This document shows, piece after piece, positions 12,740 to 62,555 of a stretch of DNA of 64,000 nt. The translations under genes and the position numbers were made by a program. Numbering within the stretch: the stretch's first letter is position 1; each line of letters opens with the position of its first letter. Source of the DNA: Eledone cirrhosa (taxonomy: Eukaryota); the NCBI GenBank assembly GCA_964016885.1, contig OZ024740.1, forward strand, positions 181,102,001-181,166,000. The letters are read 5' to 3'. The notes beneath the pieces are model-generated. The model did not search any database, was not told where the DNA came from, and saw only the letters and a list, made by a program, of their open reading frames with translations.

Positions 12740-13620
12740 TACCACACTTCAGTGACGAAACAACAACAGCCATCCGCAGAGCTATCAGACGAGAGGGACA
12801 AGATAGCCCACTCAGGACCTTCTCTACGCTGACAGCTAACCAAAAGACACTCCACCAGACATGACAGACGCTGCAGGCTAACCAACTGCCCTATCAAACG
12901 ACTCAAACCTTTGCCACCAGGCTTACGTCGTATACAGACTAGAGTGCAACGAATGCAACAATTTCTACGTAGGTAGCACCACCAGACCACTCCACATAAT
13001 AATAAAAGTACCCCTCAATGCTAACGCTTCCTTATTTATGAAATACCTAGTCAAATGCAAAAACACCGACAAAACTATAACAGGTAGGATAGAAACTAGG
13101 GAAAGAAACCTCGGCAATCTTAGAATTAAGGAAGCACTAATTATTGACAAAACACAAACACCAATCAGTAATAGACAAGAATTCAACACCCAATTTATAA
13201 CTTAATAGAGCGCTAGCCCCATACTTACACCCAAAACCCACACACACGCACACACACACATACAAAGACCCGTTCTAACACGAGGGAGCATCTATCACCC
13301 ACATTTACGTATAGACATATATTCTCACACTCACACACACACACACACACACACATACTTACACCTTCACGTATTCTCCCACACACTTAAACATACATGT
13401 ACAAAACCCCTTTTAAAGGGAGACTACTCTTGATCCACCTAACCTTAACTCTCTGACATTAGAGATAGAACAGATACTCTATACAATTTCCTGTCAGCAT
13501 GACTTGGCAAGCTATTTAGAACACTGGTTTAAACGCTTTACTCCCCTCCGAAGAAGAGATATTATCTCGAAAATTAAGGACATTTAAATAAATTTAAGGT
13601 AAAAGACTAATTGTCAACAA
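12740..13620 (+). mobile_element. Second, diverged copy of the same Penelope-like 3' region with 3' UTR/pLTR
   Basis: Reverse complement of ~11830..12465 with many substitutions (AYVVYRLEC...FYVGSTTRPLH). Ends with an HHR-like motif and AATAAA. Confidence 0.85.
13545..13579 (+). ncRNA. Degenerate minimal type I hammerhead (U4->C)
   Basis: cct CCGAAGA a-gagat-att-atctc GAAA at TA agg, at the 3' end of a PLE. Confidence 0.5.
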
Positions 13621-13840
13621 TATCTTTTGCATTTGCATTTTTATTCTATGTCCATACATGCTTTGTTTTGGCTTTACAAATACAAACGTTTATACCTTAT
13701 TACACAATGCTTCAAGTGAACTATACCTTCCATATATTTATATATATATATAGTAATAATATTTAAAGACTAAAATCCAAAGAGTGCTCGATAAGGATAA
13801 ATATATAACAAATATATAAGAACCGTAGAGCAAATATTTA

Positions 13841-13979
13841 TTAAAATAACAGATTAAAGTTGAAGCAAAGAATCGTTGCTTTCACCATTAAGGGGATCTT
13901 CTGAAGGTAGTTAGTGTCAGAAGATCCCGTTAAGGATGAAAGCAGCGATTCTTTGTTTAAACTTTTATCTGTTATTATA
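13841..13979. mobile_element. Short palindromic MITE-like element (family A)
   Basis: Arms ...aagcaaagaatcgttgctttcacc...gatcttctga / tcagaagatc...gaaagcagcgattctttgttt... Other copies at 15713 and 32281. Confidence 0.85.
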
Positions 13980-13984
13980 ATAAA

Positions 13985-14179
13985 GATATATATATAAATA
14001 TATATATATATATATATATATATATATATATATATATATATATATATATATATATATATATATATATATATATATATGTACATATATATATATATATATA
14101 TACATATATATATATATATATACATATATATATATATATATATACATATATATATATATATATATATATATATATATAT
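13985..14179. repeat. (TA)n microsatellite
   Basis: Read directly from the sequence. Confidence 0.97.
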
Positions 14180-14368
14180 ACGATATTAAACAAATGGAAA
14201 CTATATTTATAAAACCATATTTATTTCATTATACATATTTCAGGGATACCATATTAAAAATATGGCATGCCTTCTTCAGATAAAATACAATATATGAGCA
14301 GTTTTATATGTATAGTGAAATAAATATGGTTTTATAAATATAGTTTCCACTTGTTTAATATCGTATAT
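14176..14368. mobile_element. Small inverted-repeat element enclosing a hammerhead
   Basis: About 60-bp inverted arms (acgatattaaacaaatggaaac... / ...gtttccacttgtttaatatcgt). Confidence 0.8.
14222..14287 (-). ncRNA. Type I hammerhead ribozyme
   Basis: Minus strand: tattttat CTGAAGA aggcatgccatatt-ttt-aatatggtatccct GAAA tatgta TA|atgaaata. Stem I is 8 bp with one G-U, stem II about 13 bp, and AATAAA follows. Confidence 0.8.
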
Positions 14369-60642: not shown

Positions 60643-60770
60643 ATAATTGTTTCTACTTATGGCACAAGGCCAGCACTTATCCAGTGCATTACTGGTAATT
60701 TATTTCATCGACCCCGTAACTATATGTGTCAAAGCATGGCGTCCGACCTTCTACCGATACTGCCAATCAA
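60643..60770 (-). mobile_element. Internally deleted SINE
   Basis: Both ends match the 29909 copy. The segment between two gtaa motifs (including the B box) is missing. Confidence 0.8.
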
Positions 60771-61949
60771 TTAGCACTAATATATTATCAGTAAATTGAA
60801 CTTTAGTAGATATAGTCCAAGACCAGTTAAACATGAAACAACGATATTAGGATGGTCTAGGTTGGAATGTCTTTTATCAAATCCTGCTTCATCAGATATT
60901 TCGTGGATTTGTATAATTTAAATGGATAATCTGGAAACTTGTCCAAATAACTTACGTGTTGGTTTTCCCTTCTGAATTCTAAGTTAATATCTACTCAAAT
61001 AGTTACCTTCATTCATTTAATATTGATAAAATATGCGTTAATTGAAGAATTTAATTAACAATATAGTCTTCAATTACGAAGCATTGCGTTGTGCTTAGGC
61101 ATGTCACTGGAAATGTAAAACTAAATTTCTCAAAATAATCAGAAAATTAATATATCTCCCCCTCCTCAGTTGCCTAAAAAGTTGCGAGCGAAGCAGAATA
61201 GGAAAACAGAAGTGGGTATTTTTACTTGAAGTTACAATCTATCCCATGACAAAATTCGAAAAACGATTGGCCCAACACAACAAATTGTAATTCATATTCT
61301 ACATTGTACAAAATATACTAGCCAAAAGTGTGTCTCTACTCACTCATGCAGCAAGTAGCAGACAAATGCCTCCAAATAACGTCTTACAACATTAAAATGA
61401 AGAGAAACATTATCCTATGTAGTCATAGAACCGTAGAATAAGGGTGGATATCACACATGTAATAACTTATAGATATGATTAACCATGCCTCAGAGACATC
61501 TGAACAACTACAACGATGAAGAATATTCAACATTCATGGTATATTATCTTTAGCTGTAATCTGTCAAATTAAACAGTTAAAATATTAAAATATGAATATT
61601 TCACGCAGCTGGCAAAAAGATTTTACATCACATTCCAGGATCCTGACATGTCATATTTTGTGTAATGCTAACATTCATGAGAACTATGTCAAGAAAGTTT
61701 GTTTTTCTGTGGTATTCTCAAACAGCAAATGCTAATTTCATGTGCAGACAGTTATGATGACTGAAGTACCAGGAGCACACCTCGAAGGTAAATGTGGAAG
61801 TCCAAGAAAACATTGTTTCTCACCGTCTCTTTCTCAACCACCCTCTCTATATAACTATCGATCTGTTTATCTGTCTTTACGTATGTAAACTTTCTCTGAG
61901 ACACTACCATAAACAATTACATTCTAATTAATATTATTTCTTATGTAAA

Positions 61950-62085
61950 GGGCGGTGGATTGGCATACTGAGTTCAAATCCCACCGAGGTTTACTTTGCC
62001 TTTCATCCCTACGGGGTCGATAAAATAAAGTACCAGTAATGCACTGGTGAATTGCTGGCCTTGTGCCAAAAGTATAAACAATTAT
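61950..62085 (+). mobile_element. SINE (internally deleted) with candidate TSD ttatttcttatgtaa
   Basis: ggcggtggattggca..ctgagttcaaatcccaccgagg..gcctttcatccctacggggtcgataaaataaagtaccag. ttatttcttatgtaa flanks both sides (61934..61948 and 62082..62096). Confidence 0.85.
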
Positions 62086-62508
62086 TTCTTATGTAATTAT
62101 CTATCCACCGTTCAACGCATAGCATCTATGTACATACGAAGTTTCAACAATGCATTTAAACAGGGATTAGTTAAGCAAATTAAAATTCATTTAACTAAAG
62201 CTAAATTAGCAGGGTTAAACTGTATACCCTCTTTTATCATAGACATTTTCCATATGATTTAAAATTACAAAATTACTCTTTTGTGTATCATACATTACAA
62301 ACATATATATATATATATATATATATATATATATATATATATATATATATATAAGTAAGATGTATGGTAGGACGTATGTGAATCGCGATGATCACGTCTG
62401 ACTTACCAAATATGTGACGGTAGCTAGTTAAGCTCTATGCGTATACGCAGAGCAGAAATATTAGTGAAAAAGAACAAAGGAACTATTATGACATTATAAC
62501 AAGTTTAT

Positions 62509-62555
62509 TGCCGACAGCCGTTTCGTCCGACCCCATGGTGGGACTTATCAAGGCA
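62509..62555 (-). ncRNA. Type I hammerhead ribozyme, U3-A8 core variant
   Basis: tgcc TTGATAA gtcc...ggac GAAA cggctg TC|ggca, overlapping AATAAA. All three stems pair, with a GUC cleavage triplet. Confidence 0.82.

What the first reader, a model, noticed from the sequence alone, without database searches (positions are those of the whole stretch)
13545..62555. Hammerhead archipelago: about 14 motifs from many unrelated families in 64 kb
Seen: intact-core type I HHRs at 14222(-), 14869(-), 15058(+), 33012(-), 33549(-), 34537(+), 35096(+) and 40625(+), plus the U3-A8 variant at 62509(-). Decayed ones lie at 13545, 16312/16543, 31921 and 43282. Stem sequences differ between families but always co-vary, and stem III is a short palindrome (tgcgca, cgatcg, ctaattag, tatata, caattg). 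Several motifs are followed closely by AATAAA, and the host elements abut (TA)n. Inference: a genome-wide ecosystem of TA-targeting ribozyme-bearing retroelements. If the window is intronic, sense-strand HHRs could cut host pre-mRNA.
Basis: partly seen in the sequence, partly recalled or inferred. Interest (0 to 1): 0.75.

Follow-up and report, generated by a model that had tools for sequence, protein, structure and literature searches.

The report
Hammerhead ribozymes of Penelope-like jumping genes
The cluster of hammerhead (self-cutting RNA) motifs is real but is typical of this whole animal genome, which holds well over 100,000 of them at the ends of Penelope-like jumping genes and their likely short parasites in TA repeats; the class is known, but the window also carries a rewired hammerhead that is predicted, not shown, to cut.

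Summary
All 14 motifs named are real hammerhead-type sequences from 10 families. 8 of the 9 called intact pass a structure descriptor; shuffles give none. The other six are decayed or minimal copies of families with better-preserved relatives. The window is not a hotspot: 82 motifs in 1.19 Mb sampled genome-wide give about 206,000 (131,000-297,000). One subclass alone has 102,297 exact matches against 115 in the control. Most motifs lie within 250 nt of a downstream (TA)n, and same-family opposite-strand pairs are nearly always back-to-back. At least three abut Hydra-clade Penelope-like retrotransposon ORFs; one is a 559-nt retrozyme-like tandem. This is published biology (Cervera 2014, Craig 2021, including Hydra-1_Obim). 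The scale was not found in print. Host pre-mRNA cutting has no support: no host exon was found and no RNA data were available. It has about 23,000 copies, covarying helices, and the same fold ends the published Naiad_Ovul element. Earlier AI notes of this scan already flagged it. No cleavage was tested.

The parts
11594..11664 (+). Non-circularly permuted (S-G-C order) hammerhead-like motif with strand-swapped stem II and predicted kink-turn in stem III; predicted cut after 11613.
   Evidence: five helices, 88.8% of cells paired, 19 of 23 pairs with two-sided changes; 23,108 vs 36 genome-wide
10779..11710 (.). Inverted-repeat non-coding insertion between (TA)n tracts that carries the permuted motif at both outer ends; the minus copy (10825-10895) has a mutated GAAA
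12063..13133 (.). Back-to-back fragments of a C-terminal GIY-YIG-like PLE ORF (12063-12626 minus, 12739-13133 plus); clade not determined
   Evidence: GIY-YIG reading by eye, no Pfam hit
13545..13579 (+). Minimal hammerhead (3-bp stem I, U4C) about 400 nt downstream of the ORF fragment above
   Evidence: relatives sit behind the same ORF end in L060, L124, L128
14222..14287 (-). Type I hammerhead in a 183-bp self-inverted stub (14183-14365); largest family in the genome sample
14869..14939 (-). Type I hammerhead, left arm of back-to-back pair 14832-15175
15058..15128 (+). Type I hammerhead, right arm of the same pair
16266..16639 (.). Back-to-back pair with two differently decayed hammerheads (about 16312-16362 minus, 16543-16593 plus)
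22559..22680 (-).
31919..32037 (+). Decayed type I hammerhead (stem II 5' strand mutated; CAATTG stem III, GUC site)
33012..33065 (-). Hammerhead with intact core but mutated stem II; decayed copy of an intact family
   Evidence: L069 relative, 91%
33487..36128 (-). Inverted 5' arm of the Hydra-clade PLE (mirror of 39077-40840), with hammerhead 33549-33701; interrupted by the 559-bp tandem
34332..35377 (+). Non-coding partial tandem of a 559-bp unit (retrozyme-like), nested in a TA tract; hammerheads 34537-34618 and 35096-35177, predicted cuts after 34613 and 35172
   Evidence: circular fold -133.5 vs -108.9 +/- 6.1 kcal/mol in 60 shuffles
36129..38030 (+). 5'-truncated RT + GIY-YIG ORF of a Hydra-clade Penelope-like element (595-aa open frame 36214-38001; 828-aa frames elsewhere)
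40625..40777 (+). Type I hammerhead in the 3' end of that element: 10-bp stem I, 114-nt hairpin as domain II, C-A at 10.1/11.1, predicted cut after 40767
43282..43320 (-). Decayed hammerhead 3' of a Hydra-type endonuclease fragment (43871-44823 minus)
62509..62555 (-). U3-A8 type I hammerhead (GUC site), 159 nt from (TA)n; left end of an inverted Hydra-type PLE that continues beyond the window
   Evidence: (mirror copy at L127:5943)

Best explanation
The motifs are hammerhead-ribozyme sequences in repeats that end in (TA)n: several are the 3' ends of Hydra-clade Penelope-like retrotransposons, and the rest are likely truncated ends or short non-coding parasites copied by the same kind of enzyme. 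Shown: the motif lies about 50-250 nt from the element's 3' end, so even short 5'-truncated insertions keep it, and back-to-back inverted insertions and tandem arrays multiply it. Together these explain a density near one per 15 kb. Inferred: the ribozyme cuts tandem element transcripts into unit-length RNA, probably as a dimer through the palindromic stem III and possibly with protein help. The RT-GIY-YIG protein then nicks (TA)n and reverse-transcribes from two fixed points near the RNA's 3' end. The 559-nt unit would be a non-LTR retrozyme that borrows this machinery, possibly through a circular RNA. The permuted motif at 11594 likely plays the same part for Naiad-derived elements.
For: Full-length relatives of the window ORF have 828-aa frames with Hydra marks (RWR, DKT, CxCx5C, CxxC and CxH around the endonuclease E and N, no CCHH) and resemble Hydra-1_Obim by eye. 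74 of 74 scored genome matches are 95-100% identical. The same hammerhead lies before and after the ORF in L149 and after it in L145, L148, L150; none passed in L146 or L147. The 62509 motif has a mirror copy and PLE ORF pieces in the next 6 kb. In the genome sample, 11 of 12 same-family opposite-strand pairs are back-to-back, and 60 of 67 non-tandem motifs have (TA)5 within 250 nt downstream. The 559-bp family forms tandem and inverted arrays with two recurring 3' ends (unit positions about 366 and 485); all 25 visible ends of 14 loci abut TA-rich repeats. Published: hammerheads in PLE repeats, U3-A8 variant, opposite-strand pairs, dimer model (PMC4209133); Hydra insertion in (TA)n and inverted 5' copies (PMC8557442); two RT start sites (PMC11167929).
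Against: Only 4 of 82 sampled motifs have a same-strand PLE-protein match within 3.5 kb upstream (three query proteins, 10-kb stretches), so for most families the link to PLEs rests on architecture. No phylogeny with reference PLEs was run, and Pfam does not recognise the ORF. No cleavage or expression was observed. In the one PLE studied in vitro the hammerhead needed protein, was dispensable for insertion, and left no RNA-seq ends (PMC11167929); minimal PLE hammerheads cut weakly (PMC4209133). Isolated MFE folds recover the hammerhead shape well only for some motifs, not for 62509 or 22559.
Confidence: 0.85

Rival explanations
1. The motifs are PLE-derived but act mainly as structural signals for RT binding or initiation, or as passengers, and rarely cut RNA in vivo.
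For: PAc hammerhead mutants still insert in vitro and no RNA-seq read ends map to the cut site (PMC11167929). Craig et al. suggest hammerheads may simply parasitise PLEs. Non-canonical 10.1/11.1 pairs are common: U-U 14, C-A 9 of 82.
Against: The catalytic core and the NUH triplet are kept across 20 families whose stems differ, including the U3-A8 compensation in 6 of 82 copies. That pattern is expected from selection for catalysis (inference).
Confidence: 0.3
2. The window is an intron, and sense-strand hammerheads cut host pre-mRNA with regulatory effect.
For: At about one motif per 15 kb many introns must contain one (inference). Conserved intronic hammerheads exist in amniotes (PMC6155905). 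42-44% of Xenopus retrozymes overlap introns.
Against: No host-gene domain passed a Pfam cut-off among 147 ORFs tested in 264 kb. Strands are balanced (8 plus, 9 minus). Inverted pairs fold into hairpins 81-94% paired. Single minimal motifs did not cut in vitro (PMC4209133). Retrozymes are depleted from introns after size correction.
Confidence: 0.07
3. The short palindromic stubs are MITE-like DNA transposons that happen to carry hammerhead sequences.
For: Stubs such as 14183-14365 and 14832-15175 are near-perfect inverted repeats flanked by TA, and the window also has a Tc1/mariner-like relic.
Against: Arms vary in length with fixed 3' ends and variable 5' junctions, the two ends differ by a one-sided tail, tandem arrays occur, and the same layout surrounds RT ORFs.
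Confidence: 0.04
4. The motifs are chance matches in AT-rich, low-complexity DNA.
For: The genome is 32% GC and rich in microsatellites; the descriptor was shaped on these motifs.
Against: 0 hits in 40 window shuffles and in 3 shuffles of 1.19 Mb; 102,297 vs 115 with a reversed-pattern control.
Confidence: 0.01

Closest known systems
Hydra clade of Penelope-like elements, including Hydra-1_Obim of Octopus bimaculoides (Craig et al. 2021, PMC8557442; section 11, passages, supplement parts 2, 24, 25 read)
   Same: Single ORF with RT and C-terminal GIY-YIG; RWK-like, DKT and CxCx5C marks; (TA)n insertion; type I hammerhead near the 3' end; inverted 5'-truncated copy. Their File S2 already lists U-U (many Hydra) and C-A (PLE-X1_cBra) at the base of stem II.
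   Different: Craig et al. list 27 families with one from an octopus and give no genome-wide motif count in what I read. Here the element is longer (about 5.4 kb between hammerheads in L149), domain II reaches 75-116 nt in 11 of 82 motifs, and motifs number about 2 x 10^5.
Minimal PLE hammerheads (Cervera and de la Pena 2014, PMC4209133; parts 1-2 of 4 read)
   Same: Many sequence families per genome, palindromic stem III, U3-A8 variant, mostly solitary motifs from truncated elements, close opposite-strand pairs, dimer model. 13545 matches their descriptor.
   Different: Their counts were 2,000-9,000 per genome with a different descriptor; G10.1-C11.1 is conserved in theirs but present in only 13 of 82 here.
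Metazoan non-LTR retrozymes (PMC7229834, passages; bioRxiv 10.64898/2026.07.22.740005, part 1 and passages)
   Same: Non-coding tandem units bounded by type I hammerheads, low GC, proposed PLE derivatives.
   Different: The unit here is 559 nt against about 170-450; arrays are also inverted and TA-targeted; circular RNA not shown here. The largest motif count I read is 126,247 in axolotl, a genome about ten times larger (size recalled).
Type-SGC non-circularly permuted hammerhead (Eckert et al. 2023, PMC10085705; part 1, sections 13-14, passages read)
   Same: The 11594 motif has the same 5'-3' block order S-G-C, all core nucleotides, and a short linker from stem I to stem II.
   Different: Theirs were not found in genomes of known organisms. 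Here stem II is built mostly by an upstream strand with at most one pair from the strand after CUGAnGA, stem III is extended by a predicted kink-turn, and the host is an animal retroelement. Activity untested.
Naiad PLEs (PMC8557442)
   Same: The 3' end of the published Naiad_Ovul consensus, and of the record before it, reads by eye as the same fold with different stem sequences; (TA)n insertion.
   Different: Naiads were reported to lack canonical hammerheads ('HHR_half_core'). No Naiad ORF was shown next to the motif in this genome; the window copy is non-coding.

Membership tests
Type I hammerhead ribozyme | Core CUGAnGA (or U3-A8), GAAA and NUH in C-G-S order with adjacent stems I, II, III | tested here: met
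   9 window motifs, 0 in 40 shuffles
Type I hammerhead ribozyme | Stems keep pairing while sequence changes | tested here: met
   20 families among 82 motifs with different stems; pairing was part of the descriptor, so this is not independent
Type I hammerhead ribozyme | Site-specific self-cleavage after H17 | not testable with these tools
   No assay; no RNA holder listed
Type I hammerhead ribozyme | Match to an Rfam hammerhead model | tested here: not met
   0 at gathering score; none among 150 listed of 232 at E<=10
Hydra-clade PLE | Single ORF, RT followed by C-terminal GIY-YIG endonuclease | tested here: met
   828-aa frame with YRDD and YIGAT motifs read by eye; homologs P0009 and P0001 give weak RVT_1 and GIY-YIG Pfam hits below cut-off
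Hydra-clade PLE | RWK motif, DKT, CxCx5C linker, CxxC and CxH, no CCHH | tested here: met
   RWR (K to R), SDKT, CNCRNKANC, CRLC, CNH against the definition
Hydra-clade PLE | Insertion in (TA)n; tandem or inverted pLTR with hammerhead | tested here: met
Hydra-clade PLE | RT phylogeny within the Hydra clade | not tested
   Reference proteins were seen only in a supplement; compared by eye
Non-LTR retrozyme (559-bp unit) | Non-coding tandem units, each with a type I hammerhead | tested here: met
   Up to 9 same-strand copies seen in one 10-kb locus; no ORF >=120 aa inside the unit
Non-LTR retrozyme (559-bp unit) | Expressed as linear or circular unit-length RNA | not testable with these tools
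   The two runs that covered unique DNA behave as DNA
Type-SGC hammerhead (11594 motif) | Block order S-G-C with conserved core and covarying stems I and III | tested here: met
   Stem I 94.3% and stem IIIa 95.9% paired in 29 rows; all 6 stem I pairs and 3 of 5 stem IIIa pairs change on both sides
Type-SGC hammerhead (11594 motif) | Stem II formed by the strand directly after CUGAnGA | tested here: not met
   Only the 10.1-11.1 pair (20 of 29 rows); the rest of the helix comes from an upstream strand (77.9% paired, 3 of 5 pairs with two-sided changes). It works like SGC but is not filed as a member.
Type-SGC hammerhead (11594 motif) | Self-cleavage | not testable with these tools
   No assay
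Naiad-derived element (11594 motif) | Linked to an ORF with N-terminal GIY-YIG, CxC and DKA | tested here: inconclusive
   Fold seen by eye in published Naiad_Ovul; no Naiad protein search was run in this genome

The most novel reading that the evidence does not exclude
This genome runs two parallel ribozyme systems in its TA repeats: about 2 x 10^5 type I hammerheads of Hydra-type elements, and about 23,000 copies of an active, non-circularly permuted hammerhead. The second has a strand-swapped stem II and a kink-turn, is the overlooked ribozyme of Naiad retrotransposons, and may work as a domain-swapped dimer. It would be the first such rewired ribozyme in an animal genome.
Probability: 0.6. 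Interest if true: 0.8.

Novelty: new variant of a known kind. Interest (0 to 1): 0.5.

Why it matters
The assigned finding is a new, very large instance of known biology. Its value is as a test bed: the role of PLE hammerheads is still open, and this genome offers young families with intact ORFs, non-autonomous tandems and about 2 x 10^5 predicted cut sites. One cyclic-phosphate sequencing run and one intron strand-bias count could show whether they cut and whether the host pays. Rfam misses the window's motifs, so ribozyme counts in such genomes are likely far too low. The permuted motif matters more: if it cuts, it extends non-circular RNA permutation from environmental RNA to animal genomes, adds an undescribed wiring, and revises the report that Naiads lack hammerheads.

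Tried and rejected
Rfam scans found no hammerhead. My first strict descriptors found only 3 motifs because they required a paired base of stem II and a short domain II; relaxed, still missing 3-bp stem I motifs such as 13545, so densities are lower bounds. Pfam and PDB did not recognise the Hydra ORF. C-A and U-U at 10.1/11.1 as a new variant: rejected, both are in Craig's File S2 and U-U in PMC3088659 (passages); a dedicated search returned only unrelated papers. Local hotspot: rejected. AATAAA as a general poly(A) signal: mostly overlap with stem I. The 615-bp tandem holds no hammerhead core on its plus strand. Twister, HDV-like and C/D snoRNA readings of the 11594 motif were considered from recalled consensus features and dropped, because helices flank CUGAnGA, GAAA and UH at hammerhead positions. 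Mutual-information ranking was uninformative because truncated copies were included; pair counts for helices P and IIIb were off by one column and were redone. Expression: no RNA holder listed; runs X19 and X20 cover unique DNA evenly and so behave as DNA; this says nothing on expression. PMC5785218 (Lunse 2017) is not held; only its title was seen in a reference list. No paper held 'hammerhead ribozymes' with 'cephalopod'; 'hammerhead ribozyme' with 'octopus' gave 5 papers, 4 listed, none a survey; 'hammerhead' with 'Naiad' gave 4, 3 listed; 'non-circular permutation' gave 8, 6 listed, none on animal genomes by title or abstract start; kink-turn combination gave 0. Subscription journals and bioRxiv supplements were not searchable.
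Full report
Setting. The window is 32% GC, rich in microsatellites, and lies on a 443-Mb contig of a 2,996-Mb genome. An octopod host is my inference from named homologs in Argonauta and from likeness to Hydra-1_Obim; it was not established.

Observation. A descriptor for type I hammerheads (core CUGAnGA or U3-A8, domain II 8-130 nt, palindromic stem III, NUH, stem I of at least 4 pairs) finds 9 motifs in the window and 0 in 40 shuffles at score 11. 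33012 fails on stem II but has a 91%-identical intact relative. The five decayed calls are supported by relatives or by a minimal-hammerhead fit. The 14 motifs fall into 10 families; BLAST between family regions gave only two short matches, of 29 and 16 nt. Rfam found none. The descriptor was written after seeing these motifs, which favours the window.

Is it a hotspot? I sampled 119 stretches of 10 kb at round-number coordinates on the large contigs; 80 of 119 are on the four largest and small contigs were not sampled. They hold 82 motifs against 0 in 3 shuffles, which extrapolates to 206,000 (bootstrap 131,000-297,000); one stretch with an 11-copy tandem gave 14 hits. Nine motifs in 64 kb has resampling P about 0.10, and the 200 kb of flanks hold 10. 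An exact whole-genome pattern for one subclass gave 102,297 matches against 115 for the reversed control. The density is therefore a property of the genome. The largest count I read is 126,247 in axolotl (PMC7229834); descriptors differ, so I claim no record.

Hosts. 33487-40980 is one compound insertion: an inverted arm with the hammerhead at 33549(-), a 5'-truncated ORF (36129-38030), and a 3' region with the hammerhead at 40625(+). Relatives have 828-aa frames at 95-97% identity with the marks that define the Hydra clade of Penelope-like elements. In L149 the hammerhead stands both before and after the ORF. The 40625 region gave 820 first-look candidates and the 62509 region 1,151, the scored ones 99-100% identical. 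The 62509 element continues beyond the window with Hydra-type ORF pieces and a mirror hammerhead. 43282 and 13545 lie 3' of PLE ORF fragments. 34332-35377 is a non-coding 559-bp tandem nested in a TA tract. At other loci it forms arrays with up to 9 same-strand copies in view and back-to-back junctions, with two recurring 3' ends and TA-rich flanks at all 25 visible ends of 14 loci. Its circular fold is about 4 SD below shuffles. Against a blanket PLE assignment: only 4 of 82 sampled motifs have a PLE-protein match within 3.5 kb upstream.

Architecture. In the sample, 60 of 67 non-tandem motifs have (TA)5 within 250 nt downstream (27 of 67 upstream; background 21%), and 11 of 12 same-family opposite-strand pairs are back-to-back. 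All 5 inverted pairs touching the window are back-to-back. This matches the published PLE layout with an inverted 5'-truncated copy and a one-sided tail (PMC8557442) and two RT start sites (PMC11167929). Because the ribozyme sits in the last 50-250 nt, even the shortest insertions keep it and inversion doubles it.

Mechanism. Shown: sequence, position, hosts and target. Inferred: cleavage of tandem transcripts, probably as dimers through the palindromic stem III (PMC4209133), and copying by the RT-endonuclease at nicked (TA)n. Evidence from the literature is mixed: single minimal motifs did not cut in vitro, and the PAc hammerhead needed protein and was dispensable for insertion. I put identity as PLE-type ends and parasites at 0.85 and real cutting in vivo at about 0.6.

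Host pre-mRNA. Of 451 non-repeat ORFs of at least 60 aa in the window and 100 kb on each side, I scanned 147 of the longest. Two gave RVT_1 above cut-off, two gave weak hits below cut-off, and none showed a host-gene domain. Exons under about 92 codons were not tested. Strands are balanced (8 plus, 9 minus), and inverted pairs are predicted to fold into hairpins 81-94% paired. The idea stays open but unsupported.

The permuted motif. The inverted element at 10779-11710 has CUGAUGA without a downstream GAAA. Relatives show the order cleavage site, GAAA, CUGAnGA, which is type SGC of Eckert et al., who found none in genomes of known organisms. A whole-genome pattern gives 23,108 matches against 36. 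I aligned 28 non-redundant copies plus the window copy. They came from 162 anchored matches (99 distinct); 15 with an unrelated or TA-only 5' half were dropped and the rest thinned at 87% identity. A five-helix structure pairs in 88.8% of cells, with two-sided changes at 19 of 23 pairs; 0 of 500 shuffles reach this and slid controls give 34-46%. Relatedness inflates such scores, and rows were anchored on the core, so core conservation is not independent evidence. Stem II is unusual: the strand before GAAA pairs with an upstream strand (77.9% paired), while the base after CUGAnGA pairs with the base before GAAA in 20 of 29 rows. Stem III is interrupted by a 3-nt bulge followed by GA (27 of 28) opposite GA or UA, the recalled signature of a kink-turn. 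A rough geometric estimate suggests that all helices may not fit in one molecule, so a strand-swapped dimer is my speculation. I reached the SGC reading before consulting earlier notes; the Naiad link came from them. I checked it in one place: the 3' end of published Naiad_Ovul, annotated only as HHR_half_core, reads by eye as the same fold with different stems. The Naiad_Esco end was unclear, and I saw none in Naiad_Omin, Naiad_Adux or Naiad-1_Skow by eye.

Novelty. Hammerheads in PLE ends, the U3-A8 core, palindromic stem III, inverted pairs, (TA)n targeting, an octopus Hydra element and mismatches at the base of stem II are all published. Not found in my searches: the scale in this genome and the permuted motif in an animal or in Naiads. 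Both were already noted by earlier AI reports on other windows of this genome; these are not independent support. Papers seen: PMC4209133 parts 1-2 of 4; PMC8557442 passages, section 11, supplement searches and parts 2, 24, 25; PMC11167929 abstract and main text; PMC10085705 part 1, sections 13-14, passages; PMC7229834, PMC6155905, PMC3088659 passages; PMC13282606 passages and section 6; bioRxiv 10.64898/2026.07.22.740005 part 1 and passages, its supplements not seen.

Verdict. The assigned finding alone would score about 0.4; the permuted motif in the same window raises it to 0.5.

Noticed in passing
window 11594-11664 (+) and 10825-10895 (-): Non-circularly permuted hammerhead-like motif with upstream-strand stem II and predicted kink-turn; about 23,000 genome copies; same fold by eye at the end of published Naiad_Ovul.
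   Followed up: yes
window 23524-29673: Ten near-identical head-to-tail copies of a 615-bp unit between (CTA)n and (TA)n; no hammerhead core on the plus strand; one distant relative in held loci (68% over 213 nt). Origin unexplained.
   Followed up: partly
window 13836-13984, 15720-15844, 32281-32340: Palindromic family of about 150 bp next to TA tracts, common in the genome (25 hits in held loci); relatives in L090, L049, L126 carry longer inner sequence. No hammerhead core seen. MITE or another inverted PLE end.
   Followed up: partly
window 16657-17564: Tc1/mariner-like relic: 169-aa frame at 16989-17498 with a weak HTH_32 hit and 103-bp inverted ends.
   Followed up: no
window 19947-20036, 29911-30091, 43332-43510, 48431-48612, 60637-60771, 61968-62086: Dispersed SINE-like repeat family, six copies at 72-92% identity.
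   Followed up: no
window 3128-3491: Very high-copy repeat: summed contig depth about 190,000 against 7-9 on unique DNA in two DNA-like runs.
   Followed up: no
window 37980-38910: The 3' UTR of the Hydra element is built of degenerate 140-150-bp repeats followed by long TA/CA microsatellite-like sequence that is copied with the element.
   Followed up: no
window 40642-40755 and 22575-22669: Domain II is a long hairpin (114 and 95 nt) in these families; 11 of 82 sampled motifs have domain II of 75 nt or more. Role unknown.
   Followed up: partly
L063:245-3387 (-): Eleven-copy 310-bp tandem with a compact type I hammerhead (CGCG stem III): a classic retrozyme-like array.
   Followed up: no
L145:7384-7750, L148:9454-10000, L150:216-921: Relatives of the 559-bp unit (74-76% identity) lie next to the ends of 3 of 6 full-length Hydra loci, as in the window; nesting in shared TA targets or a closer link.
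   Followed up: no
window 33265-33374 and 42068-42131: Small imperfect palindromes (110 and 65 bp) next to AT tracts, unassigned.
   Followed up: no
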